Shown here: piece by piece, positions 10,653 to 32,712 of the stretch | How the letters are laid out: each line of letters starts with the position of its first letter | Numbering within the stretch: the first letter of the stretch is position 1 | The notes under the pieces: generated by a model | The model's input: only the letters and a program-made list of their open reading frames with translations | Told to the model about the DNA's origin: nothing | Database searches by the model: none | Program-made: the position numbers and the translations under genes | Assembly: GCA_964400675.1 (NCBI GenBank) | Contig: CAYNVO010000003.1 | Location: forward strand, 42,576-106,575 | Origin: an uncultured Dehalococcoidales bacterium | GTDB lineage: Bacteria > Chloroflexota > Dehalococcoidia > GIF9 > UBA5629 | Direction of reading: 5' to 3' | Length of the DNA: 64,000 nucleotides

Positions 10653-10682
10653 TGTTGTGCTCCGAAATAGCGTTCATTTGTT

Positions 10683-12217: not shown

Positions 12218-12228
12218 ATTTATTCTCC

Positions 12229-13302: not shown

Positions 13303-13321
13303 TGTTTAAGCTCCTTGCCTG

Positions 13322-13846
13322 TTAATATTCGATGCCGCGCCTGGCATCTGTACCCTCGGTGAGGGGATGTTTAATCATGAGCATTTCGGTGACTAAATCA
13401 GCCCGCTGTATTATCTCCGGTGGCGCCTTCCGACCGGTCAGAACCAGTTCAACTGAGGCAGGCTTTGAATCAAGTATGTCCAGCACCTGCTTGACGGTTA
13501 TCAAGCCCTGGCTGATGGCGATAAAAATCTCGTCGAGTATGACCATGTCATACTTCCCGCTGAGTATCTCTTGCTCGGCGTAGGCTAATGTTTGATGAGC
13601 CTCCTGGCTTGATTGCTCCTTGGATTTTTTAAAGCTATCGCCGACGCTTATCTGGACTATCTCGAAGGGGTTGTACTGCTTTACGAAGAAATGCTCGCCG
13701 CAGGGTAGCCCTTTTAAGAACTGGATGAAGGTCACCTTCATACCCTGTCCCGCGGCTCTCATCGCCAGACCTAGAGCGGCAGTGGTCTTGCCTTTACCGT
13801 CGCCGGTGTAAACATGGACAAGACCTTTGGAGTTTTTTTCAACCAT
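13322..13846 (-). CDS. cobO: Cob(I)yrinic acid a,c-diamide / corrinoid adenosyltransferase (BtuR/CobO/CobP family).
   Basis: VHVYTGDGKGKTTAALGLAMRA and DEI..AI motifs, typical of PF02572. 174 aa. Confidence 0.8.
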   Translation of the reverse strand: MVEKNSKGLVHVYTGDGKGKTTAALGLAMRAAGQGMKVTFIQFLKGLPCGEHFFVKQYNPFEIVQISVGDSFKKSKEQSSQEAHQTLAYAEQEILSGKYDMVILDEIFIAISQGLITVKQVLDILDSKPASVELVLTGRKAPPEIIQRADLVTEMLMIKHPLTEGTDARRGIEY

Positions 13847-17359: not shown

Positions 17360-17373
17360 GATTTTTCAAGCAC

Positions 17374-19242: not shown

Positions 19243-19296
19243 TCTTGTTCAGCCTTTACACCTCTAGCACTGATGTACATGCTTGTTTCTTTTCGG

Positions 19297-20262: not shown

Positions 20263-20294
20263 GCAAGGGGATTAATTCTAAATAATAAATCCCA

Positions 20295-20430
20295 CCCCCT
20301 TACTCCGCGGAGGTAGCCATACCTAGTAGGGTCGATGTTCTGACTATTACAGCAGGCGGGACTGTGCCGGGATTTCACCGGCTTGCATTCCAATTAAGCC
20401 CAAGATTGCCCCTGGGCACCCTACCGCAGC
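20295..20430 (-). promoter_or_regulatory. Cobalamin (B12) riboswitch aptamer in the leader of the btuF-cobU operon.
   Basis: Minus-strand sequence ...GGTAGGGTGCCCAGGGGCAATCTTGGGCTTAATTGGAATGCAAGCCGGTGAAATCCCGGCACAGTCCCGCCTGCTGTAATAG...CCCTACTAGG contains the B12-box-like core GCCGGTGAAATCCCGGC-CAGTCCCGCC-CTGTAA and a closing P1 (GGTAGGG...CCCTACT). ORF 20347..20598(-) inside it is judged spurious. Confidence 0.7.
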
Positions 20431-20627
20431 TATTAAGTTTGTTAACAGAATACCTGGAAATCGGTATAAAGTCAATAGAGCCAATATATCGAATGAGCCG
20501 GGCATACTACAAATCACCTTTCCTGATTGCCGGCTAGTTGCTTTCTGCTGATTTAGAATAAATCTTGATTGATGTATTACTGGCAACCTACTTGACAAAG
20601 ATCCGTCGTTCCTTTATTTTATGAGTA

Positions 20628-22307
20628 TTGAGGTACGAAGAGATGGGTGGGCGGAGGACAAAGCCCCAACTTGCCTCTGGAGATAAGGCTCTAGACTTAA
20701 GTCTGCAAGACTTGGTTAATAGTCTGGAAGACGAACTTTTTATCGTAGACAATGAATATCATATAAAGTTCGTTAACTTAGCTATCATGCAGAGGTTGGG
20801 TGGACATGCCGCTTCTCCAGTTGGCAGACTGTGTTACGATGTCTTTGAGGCTAGAGGAAGTCCTTGCAGCTCACACTTGTGGTTATGCCCTATAAACAAA
20901 GTATTACACAGCGGTAAATCAGTTGTAATCGTTCATCCCAGATATCCTATAAGCTCGGACATTGTCTCAAACGAACACATTAGAATCGTTATGTACCCAC
21001 TAAGAGATAGCCGCGGCAACATAAGCGCTGTCGCTGAGTTAAGACGAGACGTCACTGTAGAAAAAGAGATGGAGCATCAGGTTCTGAGACGTCATCATTA
21101 TCTTCAAGCTTTAAGTCGTATTTCAAGCGCTACGAGCGGGTTGCGGAATTTGAATAGTATCTTAAATGTATGTCTAGACATTGCCTTGGAGTCTGTCGAT
21201 GGTGAAATAGGGGGTATTCTGCTTTTTGATGAACAAAAACAAAGGCTACATTATCGTGTTTCTCGTGGTTTATCCGCCAAATATGTTGAGAAAATGCAGA
21301 TGGCTCCGGGAGAAGGGATAGCGGGCAGAGTGGTGAAAACTGGGGAGCCTATCCTGGTGGAGGACATCTCAAAAGACGCACGTGTTGTTCATAAGGATTT
21401 GATCAGTACTGAGGGACTTAAGGGATTTGCCAGCGTTCCATTGAAAGCGAAGGAAAAAGTTGTAGGTGTGATTAACATGGCGAGTCATATGCCAGGCCGA
21501 TTCAGGGAGGATGACATCTATCTTTTAAACTCAATGGGTTGTCAGATAGGAATTGCAATTGAGCAGGCGAGACTCTATGACCGTCTGGCAAGTGCAGCGA
21601 GGAGGTACCAGGCTCTTCTTCGGCATGCTTTGACTGCTCAAGAGGATGAAAGAAAGAGAATTGCTCGCGAGCTCCATGATGAGACCAGCCAGGCTATTAC
21701 CAGCTTGACTCTCAGTCTGCAAGCAATTATGGGGATGGCTGAAATGAAGGGCATTGTAGATAAAGACATCATAGAAAGGCTTAGATCAACACATGCCTAT
21801 ACAGTTCATGCTGGCAATGAAATAGTTAAGCTTATGAAGGAACTCCGCCCCACATTATTGGATGAGCTTGGAATGCCTGCAGCTATTCATCGCTATGCCA
21901 AAGATACCCTTCAAACTCAAGGTGTTGGTGTAACTGCTGAATTTTTGGGTACAGACGGGCGTTTTCCCCCGGAGACCGAAGTAACGCTTTTCCGTGTTGC
22001 TCAGGGACTTATAGGGAACATCTTGAAGCATTCAGGTGCGAAAAATGCTGTAATTAAGCTAGAGTGTGATAACGCCAAATGTGTATTAAAAATCGAAGAT
22101 GACGGCAAAGGTTTTAATGTTAGCAAGCTTACACGTGTAGATCATAGCGGTCGGGGTGCGGGTCTATTCACCATGAAGGAGAGAGTGAGGTTGGCAGGAG
22201 GTAATTGTAAGATTGAATCCCGGCCGGGACAAGGAACCAAAGTTACGGTGAATATCCCGCTCCCTGCGAGTGAGGTAGATGAAAAAGATAAAAGTCTTGA
22301 TAGTTGA
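20628..22307 (+). CDS. Sensor histidine kinase with PAS and GAF sensor domains and a HisKA_3 + HATPase_c core. Cytoplasmic, no TM.
   Basis: GAF-like block (EGIAGRVVKTGEPILVEDI). HisKA_3 H-box ERKRIARELHDETSQAITSL. HATPase G-boxes (DDGKGF, GRGAGLFTM). Confidence 0.8.
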   Translation: MRYEEMGGRRTKPQLASGDKALDLSLQDLVNSLEDELFIVDNEYHIKFVNLAIMQRLGGHAASPVGRLCYDVFEARGSPCSSHLWLCPINKVLHSGKSVVIVHPRYPISSDIVSNEHIRIVMYPLRDSRGNISAVAELRRDVTVEKEMEHQVLRRHHYLQALSRISSATSGLRNLNSILNVCLDIALESVDGEIGGILLFDEQKQRLHYRVSRGLSAKYVEKMQMAPGEGIAGRVVKTGEPILVEDISKDARVVHKDLISTEGLKGFASVPLKAKEKVVGVINMASHMPGRFREDDIYLLNSMGCQIGIAIEQARLYDRLASAARRYQALLRHALTAQEDERKRIARELHDETSQAITSLTLSLQAIMGMAEMKGIVDKDIIERLRSTHAYTVHAGNEIVKLMKELRPTLLDELGMPAAIHRYAKDTLQTQGVGVTAEFLGTDGRFPPETEVTLFRVAQGLIGNILKHSGAKNAVIKLECDNAKCVLKIEDDGKGFNVSKLTRVDHSGRGAGLFTMKERVRLAGGNCKIESRPGQGTKVTVNIPLPASEVDEKDKSLDS

Positions 22308-22932
22308 TGATCACACTCTCGTGAGAGACGGAATCCGGGCTTTACTAGGTTTAGTTGCCGATATAGAAGTGGTTGGTGAGGCAACGAATGGCAGGGACGC
22401 ACTGGAAAAAGTCGAACAGCTTGCCCCAGATGTGGTACTGATGGATCTGTCAATGCCTATTATGGGTGGGCTTGAAACAACACGGAGAATACGCAAGAAA
22501 CACCCGGCGACGAAAGTGTTGGCACTAACCCAATATGATGATAGCGACTATGTAGTCCCTGTTATCGAAGCAGGAGCTCGTGGTTTTGTTACTAAGATGG
22601 CGGCGTTTTCAGAACTTGCCTCAGCTATTCAAGCCGTGTATAGCGGAGATTCTTATCTGTCGCCTTCGGCAGCAAAGGCGCTTGTTCAAGAATACCAGCA
22701 AAAAACCACTGTAGAGGGGGAAAAAGACCCTTATAATCAGTTGACAGACAGAGAGAGAGAAGTGCTTAAGCTTGTTGTCGAAGGGTACACTGCTCGCGAA
22801 ATAGCAGATATACTGGTCATCAGTCCTAAAACAGTGGAGTGGTATAAAAGTAACTTAATGAATAAGATTAACATCCATAACAAAACTGACCTCATTAAGT
22901 TTGCCATACGCAAAGGAATTATAGCCGCGTGA
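22279..22932 (+). CDS. Response regulator, NarL/FixJ family (REC + LuxR-type HTH).
   Basis: KVLIVDDHTLVRDGIRALL...VVLMDLSMP receiver domain. C-terminal LTDREREVLKLVVEGYTAREIADILVISPKTVEWYKSNLMNKI LuxR HTH. Confidence 0.85.
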   Translation: MKKIKVLIVDDHTLVRDGIRALLGLVADIEVVGEATNGRDALEKVEQLAPDVVLMDLSMPIMGGLETTRRIRKKHPATKVLALTQYDDSDYVVPVIEAGARGFVTKMAAFSELASAIQAVYSGDSYLSPSAAKALVQEYQQKTTVEGEKDPYNQLTDREREVLKLVVEGYTAREIADILVISPKTVEWYKSNLMNKINIHNKTDLIKFAIRKGIIAA

Positions 22933-23124
22933 TGACCCGGGCGAAGTTCCTCCGCTAATCTTAAGCCGCTTCTGCCCCAGATTCTTCCCAACAAAAATCA
23001 AGTGTTATTCCAGTAATAATTCTGGGGATCGAGCCATGTTTTCTTAGAGGTTTTCCTATTGTCGCTTAATTTATAACCATGTACTATTCTCGTAGATTTA
23101 GTAGTTTCTGTTCAGAAAGAGCCT

Positions 23125-25248
23125 ATGTATCCATCTACAGCAAAAGGCGCCAATAAATATCAGCCCGATAAAATGACAAAATTCTCTTTTGATCATAGCC
23201 TAGTTCCACCATGCCAAGCTGCATGTCCGTTACATATGGAAATACGTGAATATGTTGATTTAGTTGCCCAGGGAAGGATTATGGAAGCTCTGCAAGTGAT
23301 AAGGGATGGTAATCCGTTCCCCTCTATTTGTGCTTATGTTTGTACTCACCCATGTGAGGATGCTTGCAGGCGTAGCCAGGTGGACAAGCCTGTTGCCATT
23401 CGTGCGCTGAAGAGGTTTGCAGTTGAATTTGGTGGTGATAGAAGAATCCGTGCTGAGGCAGAAACTATGCATAGTGAGAGGGTAGCTATAGTAGGTTCTG
23501 GCCCAGCAGGGATGGCCTGTGCCTACTATTTACGAAAATTGGGTTATCCTGTAACTATCTTCGAAGCTCATTCTGGTGTAGGTGGCATGCTTCGGGTAGG
23601 TATTCCACAGTATAGGCTTCCCCGTGAAGTACTGAATACAGAAGTGCAAAGGTTGATGCAGATGGGCGTTGAAATAAGGACAAATACGCGTGTAGTCTCA
23701 TTAGACCTGCTATCTGACATGGGTTACAAAGCCATCTTTATAACTATTGGTGCTCACCAAAGCCTTAGGATGGGCATAGAGGGTGAGGATGGCCCCGGTG
23801 TAATAGATGGTGCCACTTTTCTCCGCGAGGTGAATCTTGGTCTCAAACCATCTTTAGGTAAGAAAGTTGCTGTAGTGGGAGGTGGTAATGTAGCAGTTGA
23901 TGCTGCGCGTACAGCTCTCCGCTTAGGCGCACACAAAGTAAGTATTCTCTACCGTCGCAGCCGGGCAGAAATGCCAGCAGACCCGATAGAAATAGAGCAA
24001 GCCTTGGAAGAAGGGATTGACATTCGCTTCTTGGTGGTGCCGGTTAAATTAAAAAGGCGTAATGGGCAGTTAAGTATAAGTTGTATAAAGATGGAGCTTG
24101 GCGAACCTGATGCTACCGGTAGACGGCAGCCTATACCTATTAAAGGCAGCGAATTCAATAGGCAGGTAGACATACTGATTACAGCTATTGGACAGTCACC
24201 TCAGGCTCCAAGTGATTTCCGTCTGCGTATCGGCAGAGGGAGCACTATTCATGTTGACCCAGTCACTCTTACTACAAATAGGGTGGGAGTTTTTGCTGGT
24301 GGTGATGCTGTCACTGGACCGGCGACCGTAACCGAAGCTTTGGCATCTGGTAGGCTGGCAGCTTTTCGTATTGATGATTATCTTCAGCATAGATATCCGC
24401 AAGTTGACAAGGAAATGCGGTCACATTTGCAAGGTGATCTGTTGCCTGAGACTGTAGAGATGATCAGAAAAATAGGTCGGCTTGAACCTCCGATTCTGCC
24501 GCCTGAAGCAAGAATAGAAGATTTCAAGGCGGTGGAGTCGGTTTATGATTGGTCAACTGCTGTTAATGAAGCAAGAAGGTGTCTTCGGTGTGGTATGGGG
24601 GCTGAAATTGTGTCACAAGATAAATGTGCCACTTGCCTGAATTGTATAAGAGTCTGCCCATATCATGTTCCACGCCTCGATGTTAACGGTGCAGTTCAGA
24701 TACCAGTTGAGCAATGCCTGGCTTGTGGTATATGTGTTGCGGAATGTCCGGCGAAAGCGATAGTTCTGCGGAAGCCATATGACCAGAGACAGGTAACCGA
24801 CGAACTACATTATATACTTAAGTCCGCAGAGAAATCGAAATTCAAGCCGTTCATCGTCGGTTTTTGCTGCCAGTATGGACTTTTTGGTACTGGCACTCTG
24901 GCAAACCTGTGGCGGGAAGCTAAAGCTGGCATCTGGATAGTGCCTGTCTTGTGTGTGGCAAAAGTGGAGGCCGAACATATGTTGCATGCCTTTGAGATGG
25001 GCGCAGAAGGAGTTTTCATTGCTGGATGTGGTGAACAATGCGCTAGGGAGAATACGGCGTTGTGGATTAGTCAACGTGTTGGTAAGGTTAGAAAGACGTT
25101 AGCTCAGATCGGTCTTGAGCCTGAGCGAATACGAGATTTTATGTTGAGCTCTGCTAATGAAGATATTGCTCAGGACCTGGATAAGTTCGTTGAACAAATA
25201 ACCGGGTTATATTTTACCTCGACAATAGTGCAGGAGGTGAAAAGTTGA
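23125..25248 (+). CDS. Fusion flavoprotein: GltD/NfnB-like NAD(P)H-FAD oxidoreductase + 2x[4Fe-4S] ferredoxin + MvhD-like domain. Putative electron-input subunit of a methylene-THF reductase complex.
   Basis: N-terminus with GltD-type Fe-S cysteines (CQAACPLHMEI...PFPSICAYVCTHPCEDAC). FAD/NAD GxGxxG (VAIVGSGPAGMACAY, VAVVGGGNVAVD). CATCLNCIRVCP and CLACGICVAECP ferredoxin motifs. C-terminal FIVGFCCQYG...FIAGCGEQC resembles MvhD. Confidence 0.7.
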   Translation: MYPSTAKGANKYQPDKMTKFSFDHSLVPPCQAACPLHMEIREYVDLVAQGRIMEALQVIRDGNPFPSICAYVCTHPCEDACRRSQVDKPVAIRALKRFAVEFGGDRRIRAEAETMHSERVAIVGSGPAGMACAYYLRKLGYPVTIFEAHSGVGGMLRVGIPQYRLPREVLNTEVQRLMQMGVEIRTNTRVVSLDLLSDMGYKAIFITIGAHQSLRMGIEGEDGPGVIDGATFLREVNLGLKPSLGKKVAVVGGGNVAVDAARTALRLGAHKVSILYRRSRAEMPADPIEIEQALEEGIDIRFLVVPVKLKRRNGQLSISCIKMELGEPDATGRRQPIPIKGSEFNRQVDILITAIGQSPQAPSDFRLRIGRGSTIHVDPVTLTTNRVGVFAGGDAVTGPATVTEALASGRLAAFRIDDYLQHRYPQVDKEMRSHLQGDLLPETVEMIRKIGRLEPPILPPEARIEDFKAVESVYDWSTAVNEARRCLRCGMGAEIVSQDKCATCLNCIRVCPYHVPRLDVNGAVQIPVEQCLACGICVAECPAKAIVLRKPYDQRQVTDELHYILKSAEKSKFKPFIVGFCCQYGLFGTGTLANLWREAKAGIWIVPVLCVAKVEAEHMLHAFEMGAEGVFIAGCGEQCARENTALWISQRVGKVRKTLAQIGLEPERIRDFMLSSANEDIAQDLDKFVEQITGLYFTSTIVQEVKS

Positions 25249-25928
25249 TAGTTGCGGAACAGAAGCCTCTTGAAGCAATCAGGCAAATGATTGCTCCATA
25301 CCATAGGGTGTTGATTCTTGGCTGTGGTACATGTATGACAGTCTGTGATGCTGGCGGTGAACGTGAAGTATCCTTTCTCCATTGTTCATTACGATTGATA
25401 CAGGCAAAAAGCGGAGAAGAGCCACATATCTTTTCTGAGTATATTTTGAAAAGGCAGTGTGACCCTGAATTTATAGACCTTCTTGTTGATAAAGTCAGTG
25501 ATGTGGATGCCATTCTTTCCTTGGGTTGTGGTATAGGTGTGCAAGCCATAGCTGAATGTTTCCCAGATATGCCCGTATTGCCTGGTGTTAATACCTCTTT
25601 TATGGGTATGGCTAAGGAGTGGGGGGTCTGGGATGAGCGGTGCGTTGCGTGTGGAGATTGCAGGCTGGAGGATACTGCTGGCATTTGCCCTATTACCAGG
25701 TGCACCAAGGGAATATTAAATGGGCCTTGTGCCGGCACCAAAAATGGTAAATGTGAAGCAAGTAAAGACATGGAGTGCGCGTGGATTCTCATCTATCAGC
25801 GACTGGAAAGGCTGCAGCAACTTGAGAAAATGCGCCGATATTACCCGCCGAGAAATTTCCGCGCCGTCCCAAGGCCAAAGAGGCTTGTAAAAAAAGTTAG
25901 TGTTGGTGCAGGAGAAAGCGATGGCTAA
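25245..25928 (+). CDS. metV: MetV-type methylene-THF reductase-associated Cys-rich (MTHFR_C-like zinc-ribbon) subunit.
   Basis: 227 aa with many CxxC-type cysteines (LGCGTCMTVCD, CVACGDCRLEDTAGICPITRCTKGILNGPCAG). Immediately upstream of metF and overlapping it. Confidence 0.65.
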   Translation: MIVAEQKPLEAIRQMIAPYHRVLILGCGTCMTVCDAGGEREVSFLHCSLRLIQAKSGEEPHIFSEYILKRQCDPEFIDLLVDKVSDVDAILSLGCGIGVQAIAECFPDMPVLPGVNTSFMGMAKEWGVWDERCVACGDCRLEDTAGICPITRCTKGILNGPCAGTKNGKCEASKDMECAWILIYQRLERLQQLEKMRRYYPPRNFRAVPRPKRLVKKVSVGAGESDG

Positions 25929-26823
25929 TTCATTGTTTGAGGAGAAGCTCTATTCTGATACGTTCTTAGTGACGACGGAAGTTGGCCCACCAAAAGGGGC
26001 AGATGTGTCAGAATTGATTCACCACATAGACCTGCTAAAAGATAAAGTTGATGCCATCAATGTCACTGACCATCAGAGTTCGGTTATGCGTTTTCCGTCG
26101 TTGGGTGGCTGTCTGTTGGTAAAAGAATTGGGTGGGGAACCCATTCTTCAAGTAACCTGTCGTGATAGAAATCGCCTTGCTCTCCAAGCTGATCTTCTTT
26201 TTGCATATTCCAGGGATGTCCGTAATGTCCTTTGTCTTACGGGTGATTCTATTGATGTAGGTGACCATAGAGAAGCCAAGCCTGTCTTTGACCTAGATTC
26301 AATACAGTTATTGAAAGCGATAAGAACTATGGAGTCTGGAACGGATATGGCAGGCAATGAACTTAAGAAAGCTCCGAAATTTTGTGTTGGTGCCTCAGTT
26401 CATCCTGAAGCAGATTTCATCGAACCTCAACTTATTAAATTTGACAAGAAGGTTGCTGCGGGAGCGCAATTCTTTCAGACTCAGGGCATCTTCGACCTGG
26501 CAAGTATTCGGCGGTTCATGCAATACGCCTCACAGTTTAATGTGAAAATCCTGGCTGGAATTATAGTTTTGGCTTCCGCCAGAATGGCTCGATACATGAA
26601 TGAAAATGTACCTGGAATAATTGTCTGCCAGGCTATTATAGACGAACTTGCTGCTGTGGAGAAAGGCAAGGGACTTCAAAAGGGAATAGAGATTGCTGCT
26701 CGCCTGATAAAGGCAATGAGGGAGGAAAAACTGTGCCACGGGGTACATGTTATGGCTGTAGGTAATGAAGGTATTGTGCCTGAAATCCTGGAGGCAGCCG
26801 AATTGGCCGGTGTCAGTCGCTGA
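25921..26823 (+). CDS. metF: 5,10-methylenetetrahydrofolate reductase.
   Basis: MetF family blocks (TTEVGPPKG, VTDHQSS, LTGDSIDVGDH). Start set at ATG 25921 (MANSLF). ORF-track start 25900 also possible. Confidence 0.85.
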   Translation: MANSLFEEKLYSDTFLVTTEVGPPKGADVSELIHHIDLLKDKVDAINVTDHQSSVMRFPSLGGCLLVKELGGEPILQVTCRDRNRLALQADLLFAYSRDVRNVLCLTGDSIDVGDHREAKPVFDLDSIQLLKAIRTMESGTDMAGNELKKAPKFCVGASVHPEADFIEPQLIKFDKKVAAGAQFFQTQGIFDLASIRRFMQYASQFNVKILAGIIVLASARMARYMNENVPGIIVCQAIIDELAAVEKGKGLQKGIEIAARLIKAMREEKLCHGVHVMAVGNEGIVPEILEAAELAGVSR

Positions 26824-26893
26824 GATGACACTTTAATAAAATGGATGCAGGATTTAATCAATGAATTAATGCTACTTATGGAGGTAAAGGAAG

Positions 26894-27682
26894 ATGGGGA
26901 ACAGCGCAAAAATACTGGTTATAGATGACGAACTCGATTTCGTGGAAGCCTTCCGGATGGTATTTGAAGCTAAATCTTATCAAGTGGTAACAGCATCAAA
27001 TAGAGCAGAAGCTCAGGATGTGATGGGTGCAAATCCTGACATTATTGTGTTGGGCACTCTTGCTCCCGCCGGGCAAGCATTTGCAATGCACAACTGGTTG
27101 AAGCAGCATCCAAAATACAAGGACATACCGCTAGTGGTAATTGATGCCAGCCATGAAGAGCGTCATATCAAAGGATGGAGAAGGTTTGAGGGCATACAAA
27201 TTGAATGCGAAGCTTATATGACCAAGCCGATAGAGCCGGCTTCGATAGTGCCGCGAGTTCAAAACCTGCTTGAAGAGGCAACCAGACCCAGAAAGATTAA
27301 GGTGCTCATAGTAGATGACCATACAATGGTCAGACATGGGATACGTGCTCTTCTCACAGTGCAGAAGGACATGGAAGTGATAGGTGAGGCTGTGAATGGG
27401 CAGGATGCGCTTGAACAGGTGCAACGACTTTCTCCGAATGTTGCGCTGATGGATATAGTCATGCCTGTCATGAGTGGGCTAGAGGCAACAAGGCGAATAA
27501 GCAGCGAATATCCGCTAACAAGAGTTTTGATCCTGACCCAATATGATGAGGAAGAGAACATGCTTGTTGCCAAGCAGGCAGGGGCGCACGGTTTTATACC
27601 TAAAAGGGCAGCAAGCTCCGAACTTGTAGATGGCATAAGGGCTGTAAATGAGGGGAAATATTCTCCATGGTCGTTATCCTAA
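26894..27682 (+). CDS. Tandem receiver-domain (REC-REC) response-regulator-like protein without an output domain.
   Basis: Two CheY-like domains (KILVIDDELDFVEAF... and KVLIVDDHTMVRHGIRALL...ALMDIVMP). The second is a close paralog of the NarL-type RR at 22279, but the ORF stops before any HTH. Confidence 0.7.
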   Translation: MGNSAKILVIDDELDFVEAFRMVFEAKSYQVVTASNRAEAQDVMGANPDIIVLGTLAPAGQAFAMHNWLKQHPKYKDIPLVVIDASHEERHIKGWRRFEGIQIECEAYMTKPIEPASIVPRVQNLLEEATRPRKIKVLIVDDHTMVRHGIRALLTVQKDMEVIGEAVNGQDALEQVQRLSPNVALMDIVMPVMSGLEATRRISSEYPLTRVLILTQYDEEENMLVAKQAGAHGFIPKRAASSELVDGIRAVNEGKYSPWSLS

Positions 27683-27691
27683 CAGTGTTAG

Positions 27692-27985
27692 ATGCGAGAG
27701 GACAATCAGGAGGGTGGAATGCGACAAATATGTGAGACCTGTGCGTTCGCTAAAGATTTTACCGTGGGACCTGGCATATCAGGTTCGGATGAGGGTGTGG
27801 AGTGCACTAATTTAGAGTTTGCCAAATATCTTGACAGGCTACAAAAAAGCAATTCCTACCAGAAAGAGTTCAGTGAACGCGGCTTCATCAAAGTATTTAG
27901 AGTAGAAGCTGTCGCCTCTGATGAGAGCGAAGCATGTCAATTCTGGAGAGCTAAAAAGTTGAAGCATAAGAAAAGTGCAAAGTAA
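27692..27985 (+). CDS. Hypothetical small Cys-containing protein.
   Basis: 97-aa ORF directly after the REC-REC gene. CETC and C...C residues. No family recognised. Confidence 0.3.
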   Translation: MREDNQEGGMRQICETCAFAKDFTVGPGISGSDEGVECTNLEFAKYLDRLQKSNSYQKEFSERGFIKVFRVEAVASDESEACQFWRAKKLKHKKSAK

Positions 27986-28019
27986 CTAAAGGCTCTATTC
28001 AAAGACAGTATTTTGCCTC

Positions 28020-28049
28020 TTGCTTTCGTGTATTTGTGCATGATATAAT
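28020..28049 (+). promoter_or_regulatory. Sigma70-like promoter candidate (TTGCTT-N18-TGaTATAAT, extended -10).
   Basis: Read directly from sequence. Lies about 390 nt upstream of folD, at the head of a long non-coding leader. Confidence 0.35.
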
Positions 28050-28444
28050 CTAGCTTCGGCAAGGCAAGCAAAGCTCGGAGATTTACTTGCAAGCGACCCT
28101 AGTCTATTATTCTCTAGACCATGGGCTTACTATTGCGGCTGTTGCTAGCGCTTCAGCTTCTAAATCAACAATTGAAGAATTTCGGTATAAACTGAGTCAT
28201 CAACAGATAGTTAGCCAGCTTAAGCAGTTTTGGACTCAGGACATTTGCTGCCTTTCGAATATGTCGTTTTACTCTCGGTTACTGTTATGATTGAGAAAGC
28301 TGTGGCGTTTTCAATACAATCAAATCTAAATCAGGGGCAAAGTAAATAAGTTGGGGGTGATAAATATAGGTAATACATATTGAATCCAGCCCAGGAATTT
28401 GAGCGAAAATAATCAGCCTTCAAAAGAAGGAGGAAAAACGAGAA

Positions 28445-29335
28445 ATGACTGCAAAGATTATCAGTGGTACTGAAGTAGCTGCCGAGATTCGCGAGGAATT
28501 GAAGGGCAGAGTGAAAAAGCTAAAAGACAAGGGAGTGATCCCGGCATTAGCTGTGGTGCTGGTGGGAGAAGACCCGGCCTCGATCTCCTATGTTACCGCT
28601 AAGGCTAAGGGCTCTGAGGAAATAGGAATGCACGAGGAGACAATTCGCCTACCAGCAGATACTCCAGAAGCAGAAGTCCTGAAAAAAGTCGATGAACTTA
28701 ATAAAGACCCTAAATTTCATGGTGTATTGGTACAGTTGCCTTTGCCCAAGCACATTGACACCGAAAAGGTGATTAACTTTATCTCTCCAGAGAAAGATGT
28801 AGATGGCTTCCATCCTGTTAATGTGGGTAAGGCGCTCAGAGGTGAACCCTGTCCTTTGCCCTGCACTCCTCATGGAGTTCAGGAGTTGTTGGTCAGGAGC
28901 GGCAATGACCCAAGCGGCAAGCATGTCGTTATCTGCGGCCGGAGCAATATTGTAGGCAAGCCGCTGGCGGCTATCCTGATGCAGAAGAAGAAAGGGGCTA
29001 ATGCCACAATCACCATCTGCCATACCGGGACCAAGGATATAGGCTATTTTTCCAGGCAGGCTGATATTGTCGTGGCTGCTATGGGTGCTCCTAAGGCGAT
29101 AACCGCCGATATGGTCAGAGATGGCGCCGTGGTTATCGACGTTGGCGTTAACCGCGTAGAAGATAAGACAAAAGAGAAGGGTTTCCGCCTGGTTGGTGAT
29201 GTCGACTTCGATGCCATCAAGGAAAAGGCATCGGCGATAACTCCGGTTCCCGGTGGAGTCGGTCCGATGACTGTAACCATGTTGCTGATGAATACGGTGG
29301 AAGCAGCCGAGATTAAAGCAGGTATAACCGGCTAG
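28445..29335 (+). CDS. folD: Bifunctional methylene-THF dehydrogenase / methenyl-THF cyclohydrolase.
   Basis: 296 aa. FolD blocks (VVLVGEDPASISYV, LVQLPLPKHID, VVICGRSNIVGKP, PVPGGVGPMT). Confidence 0.9.
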   Translation: MTAKIISGTEVAAEIREELKGRVKKLKDKGVIPALAVVLVGEDPASISYVTAKAKGSEEIGMHEETIRLPADTPEAEVLKKVDELNKDPKFHGVLVQLPLPKHIDTEKVINFISPEKDVDGFHPVNVGKALRGEPCPLPCTPHGVQELLVRSGNDPSGKHVVICGRSNIVGKPLAAILMQKKKGANATITICHTGTKDIGYFSRQADIVVAAMGAPKAITADMVRDGAVVIDVGVNRVEDKTKEKGFRLVGDVDFDAIKEKASAITPVPGGVGPMTVTMLLMNTVEAAEIKAGITG

Positions 29336-29420: not shown

Positions 29421-31181
29421 ATGGCTTATGATGCAGTAAAGATGAAGGACTGGCAGATTTCAGAGGCAGCTGAGAAGAACATGCCAACCCCCGATGAGTG
29501 GCGGGAGAGACTCGGATTGCAGAAAGATGAGATTATTCCCTACGGGAGGCTGTGCAGGCTCGACTTCCTGAAAATAATCGAGCGTCTCAAGGAGAAGCAG
29601 GATGGCAAGTATATTGAGGTAACCGCCATCACACCCACTCCATTAGGTGAAGGGAAAAGTACTACCTCGATGGGTCTCATTGAAGGTCTGGGTAAACGGG
29701 GCAAGAACGTAGGTGGTTGTCTCCGCCAACCATCAGGCGGTCCCACCATGAACATCAAAGGGACTGCTGCCGGCGGTGGCAATGCGCTCCTCATTCCCAT
29801 GACCGAGTTCTCAATGGGTCTTACCGGAGATATCAACGACATCATGAATGCCCACAATCTAGCTATGGTGGCGCTTACTGCCAGAATGCAGCACGAACGT
29901 AATTACGACGATGCTGAGCTTGCCAAGCGCAATCTGCGTAGACTGGATGTAGACCCGACTCGTGTGGAAATGGGCTGGATTTTGGACTTCTGCGCCCAGA
30001 GCCTGAGGAATATCATCATAGGTATTGGTGGTCGCATGGATGGCTTCCTGATGCAGTCGAAGTTTGGCATCGCCGTCAGCTCAGAGCTGATGGCCATGCT
30101 TTCTATTGTAAGAGACCTGGCAGACCTGCGTGAGAGAATGGGCAAGATCACAGTCGCCTTTGACAAAAAGGGCAACCCTGTAACCACCGGAGACCTGGAA
30201 GTCGGTGGTGCCATGACTGCATGGATGCGCAACACCATCAATCCCACGCTGATGTGCACTGCTGAGTACCAGCCGTGCATGGTGCATGCCGGACCATTCG
30301 CTAATATTGCTGTGGGTCAGTCGTCTATCATTGCCGACCGCATTGGCCTGAAGATGTTCGATTACCACGTAACCGAGAGTGGTTTCGCTGCGGATATAGG
30401 CTTCGAGAAATTCTGGAATGTGAAATGCCGCTTAAGCGGTCTTATACCGCATGTATCAGTGCTCACCACCACCATCAGGGCACTCAAGATGCATGGCGGA
30501 GGGCCGAAAGTAGTAGCTGGTCTACCTTTGCCCGATGCTTATACAAAGGAAGACCTTAAGACTCTGGAAAAGGGCCTGTCCAACATGATACATCACATTA
30601 ATACCATCAGAACTGCTGGCATTAATCCTGTGGTTTGTATTAATGCCTTCCATACTGACACCAAGGATGAGATTGCAATGGTGCGCAAGGCGGCAGAAGA
30701 AGCTGGAGCACGTTGTGCTGTGTCCACTCACTGGGCAGATGGCGGCGATGGCGCTCTGGAGCTCGCCGATACGGTTATGGATGCCTGCAACCAGAAGAAT
30801 GACTTTAAGTTCCTTTATCCCCTGGAAACCAAGTTGCGTGAGCGGGTGGAAAAGATTGCCAAGGTGGTCTATGGAGCTGACGGTGTGTCATGGACACCTG
30901 ATGCCGAAGCTAAGGCAAAAATGCTTGAGAATGACCCACAATATGCAGACTTTATGACCATGATGGTCAAGACACACCTGAGCCTGACGCATGACCCGGC
31001 TATTAAGGGCACTCCCAAAGGTTGGACATTACCTGTCCGTGACGTCTTGATCTATTCGGGGGCAAAATTCCTCTGCCCTTGTGCCGGAACCATCAGCCTA
31101 ATGCCGGGCACCAGTTCCGACCCTGCCTTTAGAAGGGTGGACGTGGATGTTAAGACCGGCAAGGTAATGGGTCTATTCTAA
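29421..31181 (+). CDS. fhs: Formate--tetrahydrofolate ligase.
   Basis: 586 aa. [17 protein letters not shown]-loop region and overall Fhs collinearity. Confidence 0.9.
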
Positions 31182-31202: not shown

Positions 31203-31238
31203 AAGGCTGGGTGGTGCTTTGCACCGCCCAGCCTTTTT
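31203..31238 (+). terminator. Rho-independent terminator after fhs.
   Basis: AAGGCTGGGTGGTGC-TTT-GCACCGCCCAGCCTT, a 13-15 bp stem with one G-U pair, followed by TTTTT. Confidence 0.6.
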
Positions 31239-31263
31239 AGTTAAAATCAATTCCGAGGTTGAA

Positions 31264-32712
31264 TTGGCCCCAAAAGAAATACTTCGAGAATTCGAGCCTA
31301 TCTTCTATCCTGAAGCTATCGCTGTCGTCGGCGTTTCACAGAACGTATTTAAGGTCGGCTCTCTGTGGTTGAAGGCAATTATAGACGCTGGCTTCAGCGG
31401 CCCTGTTTATCCGGTTCATCCAAGAGGCGGCGAATTTCTGGGACTGAAGGTTTATACCAGCATCAAGGAAATTCCGGGGATTGTAGACTATGTCATTGTT
31501 TCCATACCCAGAGAAGCTGTCCCCGAGTTGCTGGAAGATTGCGCTAATAAGGTAAAAGCTGTTCATTTTTTCACCGCTGGCTTCAGCGAAACAGGTGATG
31601 CTTCGGGCTATGAACTCGAGGAAGACTTGTTAAAAAAAGCACAAAGGGGAGGGTTCCGTATAATCGGGCCAAACTGCATTGGCGTTTATTCTCCGGATGG
31701 TAATGTGCCCTATGGACCCGGCGGCAGAATAGGCAAAGTTGGCTCAGTAAGCTTCATCTCTCAAAGCGGCGGCATCGGTGAAAAGCTGGTTGAGCTTGGC
31801 GCTGCCAGGGGCATCAACTACAGCAAAGGAATCAGCTTTGGCAACGGCATTGACCTTGATAGCGTCGATTTCATGGAATATATGGCTGCTGACCCGAAAG
31901 TTTCTATTATAGGCGCTTATCTCGAGGGGACAAGAAACGGTCGTCGCCTGTTCACGACCATGAAAGAGTCGGCTAGGTTAAAGCCTTTAGTCGTGTGGAA
32001 AGCCGGAAGGACTGATGTCGGCGCTACAGCAGCCATGTCTCATACCGGCTCTTTAGCCAGTCCTGCATCAACTTGGTCGGCAGCGCTGAGGCAGTGTGGT
32101 GCTGTTGAAGTTAAAAGCGTCGAGGAGTTAGCCGATACCCTTTTAATATTTCAGCAGCTCGGACAGTGGAGAGGTAGTGGCAGTGGCAACGGCATAGCCG
32201 TAGTCGGTGGATTAGCAGACGGTGGTGGTGGCATTTCCGTTTCATCCAGCGATGCTTGTGCCGAGCTTGGACTTCATATTCCACCTCTATCTGCGGAGAC
32301 AAGGCATAAGTTGACCTGTATCCTGGGTCAGGTAGGCAGTATCCTGCTTAACCCTGTGGACGTAAGCCAGAGCGGCAGCAATCCGTCTATTATACGGGAG
32401 GCACTTGGGGTTGTCCTCGCCGACCCAGCCATAGATCTGGTTATAATTCAAGAAGACGCCGGGATACTTTTAAAGTATTTTCCCCTAGAGTGGGTGCAAG
32501 ACATAAACACTGTTTTTGTCGATTTCAGAGCCAACCAGGAAAAGCCGATTGTTGTTGTCTCACCACCCGGGGCTTCTGATTCGCAGCGCCTTGAAATAGA
32601 ACGAAGATTGACGCAGGCATCGATACCTGTTTTCCCCACCATGGAACGAGCAGCTAAAGCTATAGCGAACCTCAGCAGCTATTATCGGATGCAGGAAGCG
32701 TCAAAGAGCTAA
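31264..32712 (+). CDS. Acetyl-CoA synthetase (ADP-forming)-type CoA-binding / ligase-CoA domain protein (alpha-subunit-like).
   Basis: PEAIAVVGVS...KVGSLWLKAI CoA-binding (succinyl-CoA-synthetase-like) fold followed by a ligase_CoA domain. The ORF-track start 31219 (TTG) lies inside the terminator stem, so the start is placed at the in-frame TTG 31264, which is preceded by GAGG. Confidence 0.55.
   Translation: MAPKEILREFEPIFYPEAIAVVGVSQNVFKVGSLWLKAIIDAGFSGPVYPVHPRGGEFLGLKVYTSIKEIPGIVDYVIVSIPREAVPELLEDCANKVKAVHFFTAGFSETGDASGYELEEDLLKKAQRGGFRIIGPNCIGVYSPDGNVPYGPGGRIGKVGSVSFISQSGGIGEKLVELGAARGINYSKGISFGNGIDLDSVDFMEYMAADPKVSIIGAYLEGTRNGRRLFTTMKESARLKPLVVWKAGRTDVGATAAMSHTGSLASPASTWSAALRQCGAVEVKSVEELADTLLIFQQLGQWRGSGSGNGIAVVGGLADGGGGISVSSSDACAELGLHIPPLSAETRHKLTCILGQVGSILLNPVDVSQSGSNPSIIREALGVVLADPAIDLVIIQEDAGILLKYFPLEWVQDINTVFVDFRANQEKPIVVVSPPGASDSQRLEIERRLTQASIPVFPTMERAAKAIANLSSYYRMQEASKS

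What the first reader, a model, noticed from the sequence alone, without database searches (positions are those of the whole stretch)
23125..26823. Methylene-THF reductase module with a single-polypeptide GltD-ferredoxin-MvhD fusion upstream of metV-metF
metV and metF are preceded by, and overlap with, a 707-aa protein. It combines a GltD/NfnB-like NAD(P)H-FAD oxidoreductase, two [4Fe-4S] ferredoxin motifs and a C-terminal MvhD-like domain. In described acetogen systems the electron-input partners are separate HdrABC-MvhD or RnfC-like subunits. A compact fused partner may be a distinct, possibly electron-bifurcating, MTHFR type. Together with fhs, folD and an ADP-forming acetyl-CoA synthetase, it indicates a Wood-Ljungdahl methyl branch.
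Basis: partly seen in the sequence, partly recalled or inferred. Interest (0 to 1): 0.5.

Follow-up and report, generated by a model that had tools for sequence, protein, structure and literature searches.

The report
Compact NADPH-linked methylene-THF reductase operon
A Dehalococcoidia bacterium encodes a three-gene methylene-tetrahydrofolate reductase whose electron-input subunit is a single fused flavin/iron-sulfur protein; this partner is not among the four enzyme types named in a 2021 classification, recurs in abundant uncultured subsurface bacteria and archaea, and most likely just wires NADPH to the reductase rather than splitting electrons.

Summary
Window 23125-26823 holds three translationally coupled genes. 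The first is a 707-aa fusion of a GltD/NfnB-like FAD-NAD(P)H module, a 2x[4Fe-4S] ferredoxin domain and an MvhD domain. MetV and MetF follow.

The operon is syntenic in four Dehalococcoidales genomes. The same fusion sits next to MetV/MetF in Bathyarchaeia (beside CODH/ACS genes) and in other uncultured bacteria. Ten of 15 fused homologues examined have MetV/MetF within 3.5 kb. The rest sit with Hdr-like and 2-oxoacid oxidoreductase genes.

The protein aligns colinearly with 'HdrL' of sulfate reducers (HdrL-MvhD-MetVF clusters) but lacks the HdrA flavin core.

Its closest solved relatives are the NADPH arms of the Stn/NfnABC transhydrogenases. At the non-cysteine ligand of the FAD-proximal cluster it carries Lys96. 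Non-bifurcating StnC has Lys there and bifurcating NfnB has Glu.

Best reading: a three-subunit, NADPH-dependent, linear (non-bifurcating) MetVF reductase. It is a functional analogue of the Acetobacterium RnfC2-MetVF enzyme, built from a different input module. Bifurcation is not excluded (about 0.15-0.2).

It fits none of the published MTHFR types I-IV, and eight literature searches found no description of it. I rate it a new variant of a known kind.

The parts
20628..22307 (+). Sensor histidine kinase (PAS-GAF-HisKA_3-HATPase), first gene of the conserved block
   Evidence: Pfam. Syntenic in L001-L004.
22279..22932 (+). Response regulator (REC + LuxR/GerE HTH)
   Evidence: Pfam. Syntenic in L001-L004.
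23125..25248 (+). 707-aa electron-input subunit: a GltD/NfnB-like FAD-NADPH module + 2x[4Fe-4S] ferredoxin domain + MvhD domain in one polypeptide
   Evidence: Pfam/NCBIfam. PDB sequence search. AF2 model pLDDT 85, pTM 0.83. Foldseek best hits are 9bov_A, 8oh5_C and 9n5u_A.
23206..23430 (+). N-terminal Fe-S domain (aa 28-102) with C30, C34, C69, C73, C77, C81, and Lys96 at the position of the non-Cys cluster ligand
   Evidence: Fer4_20. Conservation in 24 and 32 homologues. K96 aligns with StnC K170 and NfnB Glu.
23479..24351 (+). FAD / NAD(P)H Rossmann domains (aa 119-409), with the 'ILYRRSRAEMPA' motif shared with NADPH-binding NfnB and StnC
   Evidence: Pyr_redox_2. Alignments. Motif table.
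24577..24591 (+). R485-C486-x2-C489 motif after the flavin domain. It probably supplies the two cysteines missing from the N-terminal cluster motif (a permuted arrangement shared with StnC-like proteins).
   Evidence: Invariant. Aligned with 'RCMSCG'/'RCLECG' of 9n5u_A and 9bov_A. The ligand assignment is inferred.
24610..24762 (+). 2x[4Fe-4S] ferredoxin domain (aa 496-546), homologous to the C-terminal ferredoxin domain of HdrA/HdrL
   Evidence: Pfam. NCBIfam HdrA2 model positions 572-771 match aa 494-695. 44% identity to HdrL 1333-1402.
24853..25206 (+). MvhD/FlpD domain (aa 577-694) with the putative [2Fe-2S] ligands C581/C582, C610, C635, C639
   Evidence: Pfam FlpD 1.3e-20. 5odc_D, 8rvu_F alignments.
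25245..25928 (+). MetV (Cys-rich small subunit). TTG start overlaps the stop of the fusion gene by 4 nt.
   Evidence: PF12225 1.2e-34. Junction sequence.
25921..26823 (+). MetF (methylene-THF reductase catalytic subunit). The ATG at 25921 is preferred over the GTG at 25900.
   Evidence: PF02219 1.5e-33. AGGAG upstream of the ATG. The L001 orthologue has the same 8-nt overlap.
26894..27682 (+). Second response regulator (two receiver domains, no output domain)
   Evidence: Pfam. Syntenic in L001, L003 and L004; the L002 locus ends within metF.
27692..27985 (+). Conserved 97-aa Cys-containing protein of unknown function
   Evidence: No Pfam hit. 67-77% identical ORF at the same place in L001 and L003.
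28445..29335 (+). FolD (methylene-THF dehydrogenase/cyclohydrolase)
   Evidence: Pfam.
29421..31181 (+). Fhs (formate-THF ligase)
   Evidence: PF01268 9.8e-211.
31219..32712 (+). NDP-forming acyl-CoA synthetase, alpha-type subunit only
   Evidence: Pfam. TIGR02717 344 bits, below the 567 cut-off.

Best explanation
The three overlapping genes encode one soluble enzyme: an NADPH:5,10-methylene-tetrahydrofolate oxidoreductase of the MetVF kind.

The 707-aa protein is its electron-input subunit. The proposed path is:
1. NADPH gives a hydride to the FAD of the GltD-like module.
2. Single electrons leave through the two [4Fe-4S] clusters of that module. The proximal cluster has Lys96 in place of a fourth cysteine. 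The distal cluster is completed by C486/C489.
3. They continue through the fused 2x[4Fe-4S] ferredoxin domain and the [2Fe-2S] of the MvhD domain.
4. They reach the clusters of MetV and then the flavin of MetF, where methylene-THF is reduced to methyl-THF.

The ferredoxin+MvhD tail is the same 'entry wire' that feeds HdrA in Mvh-Hdr complexes. Here it is turned into an exit wire and docking piece for MetV.

The chain is linear: no second acceptor and no energy coupling. Functionally the enzyme equals the Acetobacterium woodii RnfC2-MetVF type. It is built from a different NAD(P)H module, and it looks like a sulfate-reducer HdrL-MvhD pair stripped of the HdrA flavin core.

Shown: the domain content, the conserved cofactor ligands, the gene coupling and the conserved neighbourhood.
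Inferred: complex formation, the order of the clusters, NADPH preference, and the absence of bifurcation.
For: Architecture and ligands.

Translational coupling: 4-nt and 8-nt overlaps with Shine-Dalgarno sequences.

Conserved synteny:
- L001-L004, Dehalococcoidales.
- L081 and L086, Bathyarchaeia: divergent from MetV/MetF and beside cdhCDE.
- L082/L083.
- L088 and L089, inside folD/fhs/cooS/cdhD clusters.
- 10 of 15 fused proteins have MetV/MetF within 3.5 kb.

Established background: MetVF alone has no NAD(P)H site and needs an input module (PMC8760232).

Relatives of the flavin module: the closest solved ones are the NADPH arms of StnABC/NfnABC. In StnC that FAD is shown to be non-bifurcating, and its proximal cluster has Lys170 where NfnB has Glu (PMC10482914). 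Window Lys96 aligns to StnC Lys170 and to 'LERF' Glu of NfnB 4ylf_B/5jca_L. All 15 fused homologues have Lys, whereas 44 canonical NfnB/GltD-size proteins have Glu.

NADPH motif: 'YRR' is shared with NfnB, StnC and NfnABC.

Wire continuity: the ferredoxin domain starts 12 residues after C489, which fits one continuous wire. The Fd+MvhD tail matches the C-terminus of HdrA2 and of HdrL.
Against: - No biochemical data exist for any member.
- Lys versus Glu is a correlate of bifurcation, not a proven determinant.
- The cofactor set (one NADPH-flavin, several clusters, one collecting flavin in MetF) would in principle allow Nfn-style bifurcation.
- Cofactor distances could not be measured, because the structure tool gives no coordinates.
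- In related organisms the same fusion sits in front of HdrBC-like and HdrA genes (L087; L084; L090). A larger complex with Hdr-like proteins encoded elsewhere in this genome cannot be ruled out from 64 kb.
- Some MetVF-adjacent family members have lost the MvhD cysteines. The [2Fe-2S] is therefore not always part of the path.
Confidence: 0.6

Rival explanations
1. Minimal flavin-based electron-bifurcating MTHFR. NADPH is oxidised at the GltD-like FAD. One electron goes down the high-potential branch (MvhD [2Fe-2S] to MetV to MetF to methylene-THF). The other goes up the low-potential branch ([4Fe-4S] clusters and ferredoxin domain) to free ferredoxin, as in NfnAB, with MetF playing the part of NfnA.
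For: - The module is homologous to NfnB, whose FAD bifurcates.
- The Arg that contacts flavin N5 in NfnB is conserved (R164).
- A [2Fe-2S] domain and a separate dicluster domain are both present.
- The hosts (Dehalococcoidia, Bathyarchaeia) live under energy limitation, where such coupling would pay (own knowledge).
- An exergonic step of about 120 mV is available (PMC8760232).
Against: - Lys96 rather than Glu at the proximal cluster, as in non-bifurcating StnC.
- The module sits in the StnC/NfnABC-arm clade, not the NfnB clade.
- Fd domain and MvhD are consecutive, and in HdrA-MvhD they form one wire rather than two branches (established Mvh-Hdr structure, summarised in PMC9012536).
- The conserved Arg is also present in StnC, so it is not diagnostic.
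- Family members next to MetVF that lack the MvhD cysteines would have no high-potential exit.
Confidence: 0.17
2. The fusion-MetVF trio is only the core of a larger Moorella-like (type IV) complex. It works with HdrBC-like and/or HdrA proteins encoded elsewhere in the genome, and the GltD module is an added NADPH port.
For: - In L087 the fusion is followed by an HdrBC-like CCG protein, two HdrA-like proteins, MvhD, MetV and MetF.
- In Marinimicrobia (L084) and in L090 it precedes HdrBC-like and HdrA-MvhD genes.
- A gene order like L087's was described as hdrABC-mvhD-metVF in marine Anaerolineae (PMC5736913).
Against: - No CCG-domain or HdrA-core gene was found among the ORFs of at least 90 aa scanned in the 64-kb window, nor in the flanks of L001-L004, L081, L086, L088 (downstream) or L089.
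- The operon is tight and bounded by regulators.
- The same three-gene set stands alone in archaea beside cdh genes.
Confidence: 0.12
3. The 707-aa protein is not an MTHFR subunit. It is a general NAD(P)H:ferredoxin-type oxidoreductase, or the beta subunit of an NADP-dependent formate dehydrogenase (as JGI annotates homologues), or a glutamate-synthase/sulfide-dehydrogenase small subunit that merely lies next to metVF.
For: - JGI names for homologues: 'formate dehydrogenase beta subunit' and 'selenate reductase YgfK subunit'.
- The first 550 aa nearly reach the PRK12771 cut-off (505 vs 516 bits).
- 5 of 15 fused homologues are not next to MetVF.
- Stand-alone NfnB-like proteins can act as ferredoxin:NADP oxidoreductases (PMC12221290, title and abstract).
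Against: - Start/stop overlap with metV.
- The neighbourhood is conserved across two domains of life.
- No fdhA, gltB or sudB/nfnA-like gene in the window.
- The MvhD docking domain has no role in those enzymes.
Confidence: 0.08

Closest known systems
Type III MTHFR, RnfC2-MetV-MetF of Acetobacterium woodii (Bertsch et al. 2015, as summarised in PMC8760232)
   Same: A three-subunit enzyme. MetVF is supplemented by one extra Fe-S flavoprotein that carries the pyridine-nucleotide site. It forms a linear, non-bifurcating chain to MetF. This is what the window enzyme most likely works like.
   Different: The input subunit is not homologous. RnfC2 is an FMN/NuoF-RnfC-type protein using NADH. Here it is an FAD GltD/StnC-type module with an NADPH-type motif, plus an HdrA-type ferredoxin domain and MvhD.
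Type IV MTHFR, HdrABC-MvhD-MetVF of Moorella thermoacetica / Sporomusa ovata (Mock et al. 2014, via PMC8760232 and PMC5736913)
   Same: MetVF combined with an MvhD element and an HdrA-type C-terminal ferredoxin domain. NAD(P)H is the reductant.
   Different: The window has no HdrA flavin core and no HdrB/HdrC (CCG) proteins. MvhD is a domain, not a subunit. A GltD-type flavin module replaces HdrA as the nucleotide site.
HdrL ('heterodisulfide reductase/glutamate synthase fusion', Strittmatter et al. 2009, PMC2702500) followed by MvhD-MetV-MetF in Desulfobacterota
   Same: Colinear homology. Window aa 20-511 match HdrL 77-565 at 43% identity, and aa 496-566 match HdrL 1333-1402 at 44%. In the genome loci examined here, MvhD, MetV and MetF follow.
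   Different: HdrL carries about 770 extra residues of HdrA2-like flavoprotein between the two matching parts. Its MvhD is a separate gene. The MetVF-linked HdrLs have His, not Lys, at the cluster-ligand position.
StnC / NfnABC large subunit (8oh5_C, 9bov_A, 9n5u_A), the NADPH arm of Bfu-type transhydrogenases
   Same: Best sequence and fold matches (E 1e-107 to 1e-121; Foldseek E about 1e-52). Shared features: the permuted RCxxC motif, the Lys ligand and the YRR NADPH motif.
   Different: Those proteins continue into a NuoG/FdhF-like domain and dock to HydBC-like bifurcating subunits. The window protein continues into Fd+MvhD and sits with MetVF.
NfnB/NfnL of NfnAB (4ylf_B, 5jca_L)
   Same: Same fold for aa 28-422 (about 38-40% identity, TM 0.78 on the target). 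FAD plus two [4Fe-4S] clusters, and NADPH.
   Different: NfnB has Glu at the proximal cluster and a canonical N-terminal CxxC. It has an NfnA partner with a [2Fe-2S] cluster and a second FAD. It bifurcates.

Membership tests
MetVF-type methylene-THF reductase (core of types II-IV) | MetF catalytic subunit with the MTHFR TIM-barrel domain | tested here: met
   PF02219 E 1.5e-33 over aa 15-300. Distant matches to solved MTHFRs.
MetVF-type methylene-THF reductase (core of types II-IV) | MetV small Cys-rich subunit (PF12225) encoded next to metF | tested here: met
   PF12225 E 1.2e-34. 8-nt overlap with metF.
MetVF-type methylene-THF reductase (core of types II-IV) | FMN and Fe-S content; methylene-THF reduction activity | not testable with these tools
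   Needs purified protein.
Type III MTHFR (RnfC2-MetVF) | RnfC/NuoF-like FMN-NADH subunit encoded with metVF | tested here: not met
   No RnfC or Complex1_51K domain in the 707-aa protein or its neighbours. A NuoF-GltD fusion does occur with MetVF in other Dehalococcoidia (L039).
Type IV MTHFR (HdrABC-MvhD-MetVF) | HdrA with its thioredoxin-reductase-like flavin core | tested here: not met
   Only HdrA2 model positions 572-771 (C-terminal Fd + MvhD) match, at aa 494-695.
Type IV MTHFR (HdrABC-MvhD-MetVF) | HdrB/HdrC (CCG-domain) subunits | tested here: not met
   No PF02754 hit in any of the window ORFs scanned. The rest of the genome was not seen.
Type IV MTHFR (HdrABC-MvhD-MetVF) | MvhD element | tested here: met
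   Present as a fused domain: FlpD 1.3e-20, 5odc_D 4e-13.
MvhD/FlpD family | Conserved cysteines for the [2Fe-2S] cluster | tested here: met
   C581/C582, C610, C635 and C639 align with the MvhD cysteines. They are kept in all close homologues but lost in some distant ones.
MvhD/FlpD family | Association with MvhAG hydrogenase or HdrA | tested here: not met
   No hydrogenase or HdrA gene in the window.
Bifurcating NfnAB (NfnB subunit) | Fer4_20 + FAD/NADPH Rossmann fold | tested here: met
Bifurcating NfnAB (NfnB subunit) | Glu as the fourth ligand of the FAD-proximal [4Fe-4S] ('LERF') | tested here: not met
   Window has Lys96 ('ALKRFA'). NfnB 4ylf_B and 5jca_L have Glu. Table.
Bifurcating NfnAB (NfnB subunit) | NfnA/PyrK-like partner with [2Fe-2S] and a second FAD | tested here: not met
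   None in the window or in the syntenic loci.
StnC / NfnABC NADPH arm (Bfu-type transhydrogenase) | GltD-like domain with Lys at the proximal cluster and a downstream RCxxC motif | tested here: met
   K96 aligns to StnC K170. RCLRCG aligns with RCMSCG/RCLECG.
StnC / NfnABC NADPH arm (Bfu-type transhydrogenase) | NuoG/FdhF-like domain and HydBC-like partner subunits | tested here: not met
   The protein ends in Fd+MvhD. There are no NuoE/NuoF-like genes in the window.
HdrL (GltD-HdrA fusion of Desulfobacterota) | GltD-like module and HdrA C-terminal ferredoxin domain in one chain, with MvhD following | tested here: met
   Colinear BLASTP alignment. Here MvhD is fused rather than separate.
HdrL (GltD-HdrA fusion of Desulfobacterota) | HdrA flavoprotein core between the two parts | tested here: not met
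   Absent: 707 aa against about 1400 aa.
Glutamate synthase small subunit / sulfide dehydrogenase | GltB large subunit or SudB/NfnA partner encoded nearby; about 450-500 aa with no extra domains | tested here: not met
   No such partner in the window. Scores are far below the equivalog cut-offs (TIGR01316 316 vs 472; TIGR01317 170 vs 448).

The most novel reading that the evidence does not exclude
The fusion-MetV-MetF trio is the smallest flavin-based electron-bifurcating methylene-THF (or methylene-H4MPT) reductase. It would use NADPH to reduce both the C1 carrier and ferredoxin. That would give Dehalococcoidia, Bathyarchaeia and relatives an energy-saving step in the Wood-Ljungdahl pathway, and give biochemists a three-subunit model for the long-sought 'bifurcating MTHFR'.
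Probability: 0.17. Interest if true: 0.85.

Novelty: new variant of a known kind. Interest (0 to 1): 0.55.

Why it matters
The electron donor of the methylene-THF reductase step is a long-standing open point in the energetics of the Wood-Ljungdahl pathway (PMC8760232). Four enzyme types are named there, and two of them have unresolved physiology.

This module would be a fifth gene-cluster type. It has an obvious nucleotide site and only three subunits, so it is easy to express and test.

It is not a curiosity of one genome:
- More than 120 clusters (at 90% identity) of close homologues exist in Chloroflexota metagenomes.
- About 25 further 50%-identity clusters share the same architecture.
- They include Bathyarchaeia and Asgard-labelled archaea, where the fusion lies beside MetV-MetF and CODH/ACS genes.

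In those archaea the redox partner of the MetF that replaces Mer is an explicit open question (PMC9012536). The neighbourhood points to NAD(P)H.

Practically, homologues are annotated 'FAD-dependent oxidoreductase', 'formate dehydrogenase beta subunit' or 'selenate reductase YgfK subunit'. Such labels could mislead pathway reconstructions from metagenomes.

The series from HdrL to the compact fusion to the NuoF-GltD fusion, all next to MetVF, also illustrates how electron-input modules are swapped on one catalytic core.

Tried and rejected
- The promoter/terminator consensus scan of 20200-28500 gave no more sites than shuffles. It says nothing about the transcription unit.
- The structure prediction gave a confident model, but no coordinates are exposed. 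The planned measurement of Cys-cluster and FAD distances (one exit or two) could not be done.
It added only a few relevant loci (L093, L096, L118, L127) and cannot be used for frequencies.
- The PDB sequence search with MetV found nothing. MetF has only distant solved relatives. No structural template exists for the MetV docking surface.
- Eight literature searches and the passages read found HdrL, HdrA/NfnB fusions, types I-IV and Stn. None describes a GltD-Fd-MvhD fusion partnered with MetVF. The library holds open-access papers only, so a mention elsewhere cannot be excluded.
- Rejected: 'standard glutamate synthase small subunit', because there is no GltB, the protein has extra domains and the scores are sub-threshold.
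- Rejected: 'FdhB', because there is no fdhA.
- Rejected: co-inheritance of the fusion with one MetF lineage. The rough NJ tree of MetF puts the window MetF with the MetF of NuoF-GltD loci and with the cdhD-adjacent MetF2. It is not with the MetF that follows the fusion in L088/L089. The partnership was therefore assembled more than once.

Full report
**What is there.** Window 23125-26823 (+ strand) holds three ORFs.
- 23125-25248, 707 aa.
- 25245-25928, 227 aa, TTG start.
- 25900-26823. The MetF start is more probably the ATG at 25921, which follows AGGAG, giving 300 aa.

The stop of the first gene overlaps the start of the second (TTGA, with AGGAGGTG 8 nt upstream). The second overlaps the third by 8 nt. 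This is the signature of translational coupling.

Pfam places four elements in the 707-aa protein:
- Fer4_20, aa 28-102.
- Pyr_redox_2, aa 119-409.
- A 4Fe-4S dicluster domain, aa 496-546.
- FlpD/MvhD, aa 577-694, E 1.3e-20.

The next two proteins are MetV (PF12225, 1.2e-34) and MetF (PF02219, 1.5e-33). NCBIfam adds two points. Residues 16-548 resemble PRK12771-type 'NAD(P)-binding protein' (505 bits; cut-off 516). Residues 494-695 match the last 200 positions of the HdrA2 model, that is, the HdrA C-terminal ferredoxin domain plus fused MvhD.

**Cofactor ligands.** The sequence has two canonical CxxCxxCxxxCP motifs (C501-C511 and C531-C541). The MvhD part has five cysteines (C581/582, C610, C635, C639). 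These align with the cysteines of solved MvhD chains (5odc_D, 8rvu_F).

The N-terminal cluster domain has only six cysteines and lacks the usual leading CxxC. An invariant R485-C486-x2-C489 follows the flavin domain instead. It aligns with the same motif in the NfnABC large subunits 9n5u_A and 9bov_A. I read this as a permuted way of completing the second [4Fe-4S]. That assignment is an inference.

All these residues are invariant or at least 90% conserved in 24 and 32 homologues of 34-84% identity. The predicted inventory for the fusion is one FAD, four [4Fe-4S] and one [2Fe-2S].

**Context in the window.**
- Upstream on the same strand lie a PAS-GAF histidine kinase and a LuxR-type response regulator.
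- Downstream lie a two-receiver response regulator, a conserved 97-aa ORF, folD, fhs, and an alpha-type NDP-forming acyl-CoA synthetase subunit.
- Further upstream on the other strand is a corrinoid salvage/transport operon behind a cobalamin riboswitch.
- The rest of the window is cell-envelope sugar metabolism.

No CODH/ACS, formate dehydrogenase, HdrB/C, hydrogenase or Rnf gene occurs in the 64 kb. So the 'methyl branch' genes are there, but a complete Wood-Ljungdahl pathway is not shown. The acetyl-CoA synthetase claim is only partly supported: the protein scores below the equivalog cut-off and has no ATP-grasp part.

**Origin and abundance.**
- The exact 707-aa sequence is on 13 public contigs, the longest 586 kb. 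A cluster member is named as Dehalococcoidia.
- More than 120 clusters (at 90% identity) of about 707-aa proteins share at least 75% identity, all from Chloroflexi/Dehalococcoidia metagenomes. They are named 'FAD-dependent oxidoreductase' or 'formate dehydrogenase beta subunit'.
- In the species-level genome collection, four Dehalococcoidales/Chloroflexota genomes carry the kinase, regulator, fusion and MetV in the same order. Three carry a complete MetF followed by the second regulator. One (L001) also shows FolD, Fhs and Acd. This is at 70-80% protein identity and about 76% DNA identity.

**Is the partnership with MetVF general?** A search of 1.8 billion representatives found about 25 further 50%-identity clusters with the same single-chain architecture at 34-47% identity. 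A profile search showed that many belong to Bathyarchaeia and Promethearchaeota-labelled archaea. The neighbourhoods are:
- Bathyarchaeial L081 and L086: the fusion lies divergently next to MetV/MetF (fused or split) and directly beside cdhC-cdhD-cdhE.
- L082/L083: fusion, a toxin-antitoxin pair, MetV, MetF.
- L088: FolD, CooS-like, fusion, MetV, MetF, regulators, a second MetV-MetF, CdhD.
- L089: Fhs, FolD, fusion, MetV, MetF, regulators, MetV-MetF, CdhD.
- L087: fusion, HdrBC-like, two HdrA-like proteins, MvhD, MetV, MetF, CdhD. By gene order this resembles the 'hdrABC-mvhD-metVF' cluster described for marine Anaerolineae (PMC5736913).
- Marinimicrobia L084/85 and L090: 2-oxoacid:ferredoxin oxidoreductase genes, fusion, HdrBC-like, HdrA-MvhD, with no MetVF.
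- L091: no MetVF nearby.

Over all fetched loci, 10 of 15 fused proteins have MetV/MetF within 3.5 kb. The fusion is therefore a modular NAD(P)H port. MetVF is its commonest partner, but not its only one.

**Relation to known proteins.** In Desulfobacterales, Syntrophobacteria and Nitrospinaceae-labelled genomes, MetV-MetF is preceded by a roughly 1400-aa protein and a separate 117-aa MvhD. That large protein is the 'HdrL' heterodisulfide reductase/glutamate synthase fusion of Desulfobacterium autotrophicum (PMC2702500; PMC5947623).
- Window aa 20-511 align with HdrL 77-565 at 43% identity.
- Window aa 496-566 align with HdrL 1333-1402 at 44% identity.
- The roughly 770 residues in between are HdrA2-like flavoprotein.

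The window protein thus equals HdrL plus MvhD without the HdrA flavin core.

A third design occurs in other Dehalococcoidia: a NuoE/NuoF-GltD fusion of about 1020-1040 aa followed by MetV-MetF (L039, L096, L118). A rough NJ tree of MetF groups the window MetF with those loci and with the cdhD-adjacent MetF2. It does not group with the MetF that follows the fusion in L088/L089. Partners were exchanged during evolution.

**Bifurcating or not.**

Relatives of the flavin module. The nearest solved relatives are not NfnB itself. They are the large subunits of the Bfu-type transhydrogenases: 9n5u_A (E 2.5e-121), 9bov_A and StnC 8oh5_C. NfnB, GltD and DPD follow. A confident AF2 model (pLDDT 85, pTM 0.83) gives the same order by Foldseek.

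What is known for StnC. The structural paper shows that its GltD-like FAD is the non-bifurcating NADPH entry. It also shows that the FAD-proximal cluster has Lys170 where NfnB has Glu (PMC10482914).

The window residue. Lys96 ('ALKRFA') aligns with StnC Lys170. NfnB of Thermotoga and Pyrococcus have 'LERF'. In a table over 171 loci:
- All 15 fused proteins, and nearly all multi-domain relatives, have Lys.
- 44 proteins of canonical NfnB/GltD size have Glu.
- The 12 MetVF-linked Desulfobacterales HdrL proteins have His.

Other points.
- The Arg that contacts flavin N5 in NfnB is conserved everywhere, so it is not diagnostic.
- There is no NfnA-like partner.
- The ferredoxin domain begins 12 residues after C489.
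- In HdrA-MvhD the ferredoxin domain and MvhD form one wire.
- The 'ILYRRSRAEMPA' motif is shared with the NADPH-binding relatives. Some homologues have 'CLE' instead and may prefer NADH (inference).

Together these favour one linear chain from NADPH to MetF. They do not prove it.

**A caveat on the MvhD domain.** Family members of the L087-L089 type have replaced the MvhD cysteines: FFD for FCC, FGL for LC, DPF for C. L088 and L089 are nevertheless directly followed by MetV-MetF. In those proteins the domain can only be a docking piece. In the window protein and all close relatives the cysteines are intact.

**Comparison with the published classification.** Oppinger et al. (PMC8760232) list four types:
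- Type I: MetF alone.
- Type II: MetVF.
- Type III: RnfC2-MetVF, NADH-dependent and non-bifurcating.
- Type IV: HdrABC-MvhD-MetVF, with an unknown second acceptor.

The window enzyme has the type II core and works most like type III. It shares pieces (MvhD, the HdrA C-terminal domain) with type IV. It fails the defining features of both III and IV.

Eight full-text searches and the passages read found no description of a GltD-Fd-MvhD fusion partnered with MetVF. A 2017 paper even stated that no other Chloroflexi clade has metV. The library holds open-access papers only, so this is absence of evidence, not proof.

**Verdict.** The feature is real, conserved and coherent. I rate it a new variant of a known kind: a MetVF reductase with a previously unnamed, compact NADPH-input subunit.

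My approximate confidences:
- Linear NADPH-dependent mechanism: 0.6.
- Nfn-style bifurcation: 0.17.
- Larger Hdr-containing complex: 0.12.
- Unrelated function: 0.08.

Interest is moderate to good. The module bears on an open bioenergetic question, is widespread in dominant subsurface lineages of both domains, and is small enough to settle by experiment.

Noticed in passing
window 20313-20438 (- strand), with genes 10110-20262 (- strand): A cobalamin riboswitch (Rfam RF00174, 38.5 bits) lies upstream of a BtuF/BtuC/BtuD-like transporter. Corrinoid salvage and remodelling genes follow: CbiB, CobD-type aminotransferase, CobQ, BtuR, CobT, CobS, CobU. The operon sits back to back with the MTHFR block.
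   Followed up: partly
window 27692-27985 (+): A 97-aa Cys-containing ORF with no Pfam family lies between the second response regulator and folD. A 67-77% identical ORF sits at the same place in L001 and L003, so it is a real conserved small gene of unknown function.
   Followed up: partly
window 20628-22932 and 26894-27682; L087-L089; Desulfobacterota loci such as L016 14147-14536: Two-component or receiver-domain genes flank MetVF clusters in unrelated lineages. In Dehalococcoidales: kinase + LuxR regulator upstream, REC-REC downstream. Between two metVF pairs in L087-L089: RR-RR-HK. After metF in Desulfobacterota: a single receiver. A 2017 paper noted the same for DscP3. Regulated expression of this central enzyme seems to be a conserved theme.
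   Followed up: no
L039 3134-8310; L096 1-4672; L118 4333-9126: Other Dehalococcoidia carry a different partner in front of MetV-MetF: one protein of about 1020-1040 aa. In L039 (the only one domain-scanned) it fuses a NuoE-like [2Fe-2S] domain, NuoF (FMN) and a GltD-like module, so it resembles a fused Stn/Bfu-type unit. This variant has two flavins and may be the better candidate for bifurcation.
   Followed up: partly
L087 7001-9112, L088 6001-8079, L089 6001-8091 (and P0301, P0305, P0335): A subgroup of the fused family has lost the MvhD cluster cysteines (FFD/FGL/DPF in place of FCC/LC/C), yet L088 and L089 are still followed directly by MetV-MetF. There the MvhD-like domain can only be structural.
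   Followed up: partly
L009, L012, L016, L021, L026, L033, L035, L036, L040, L055, L076, L127 (HdrL genes): The MetVF-linked HdrL proteins of Desulfobacterales have His ('LHRF') where StnC has Lys and NfnB has Glu at the proximal-cluster ligand position. This is a third variant with unknown consequences for redox tuning.
   Followed up: no
L088 8092-9674 and 12122-13710; L089 8098-9677 and 12119-13732; L087: These loci carry two different MetV-MetF pairs a few kb apart. One follows the fusion. The other is next to cdhD and is closer to the window MetF (51-53% against 42-43% identity).
   Followed up: partly
homologues P0020, P0044, P0062, P0063, P0290, P0293 and others: Public annotations call this protein 'formate dehydrogenase beta subunit' or 'putative selenate reductase YgfK subunit'. 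None of the window ORFs scanned is a molybdopterin subunit (neighbours in other loci were not specifically checked). Such labels may inflate formate dehydrogenase calls in metagenome pathway reconstructions.
   Followed up: no
window 31219-32712 (+): The acyl-CoA synthetase (NDP-forming) gene encodes only the alpha-type part: CoA-binding, ligase-CoA and flavodoxin-like domains. The ATP-grasp beta part is not in the window. The L001 orthologue is equally short.
   Followed up: partly
window 41397-41765 (+) and 58642-60138 (+): A 23S rRNA-intervening-sequence family protein (PF05635) is embedded in a glycosyltransferase/sugar-epimerase cluster. A B12-binding radical SAM protein lies further downstream. 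PF05635 genes also flank the fusion in L090.
   Followed up: no
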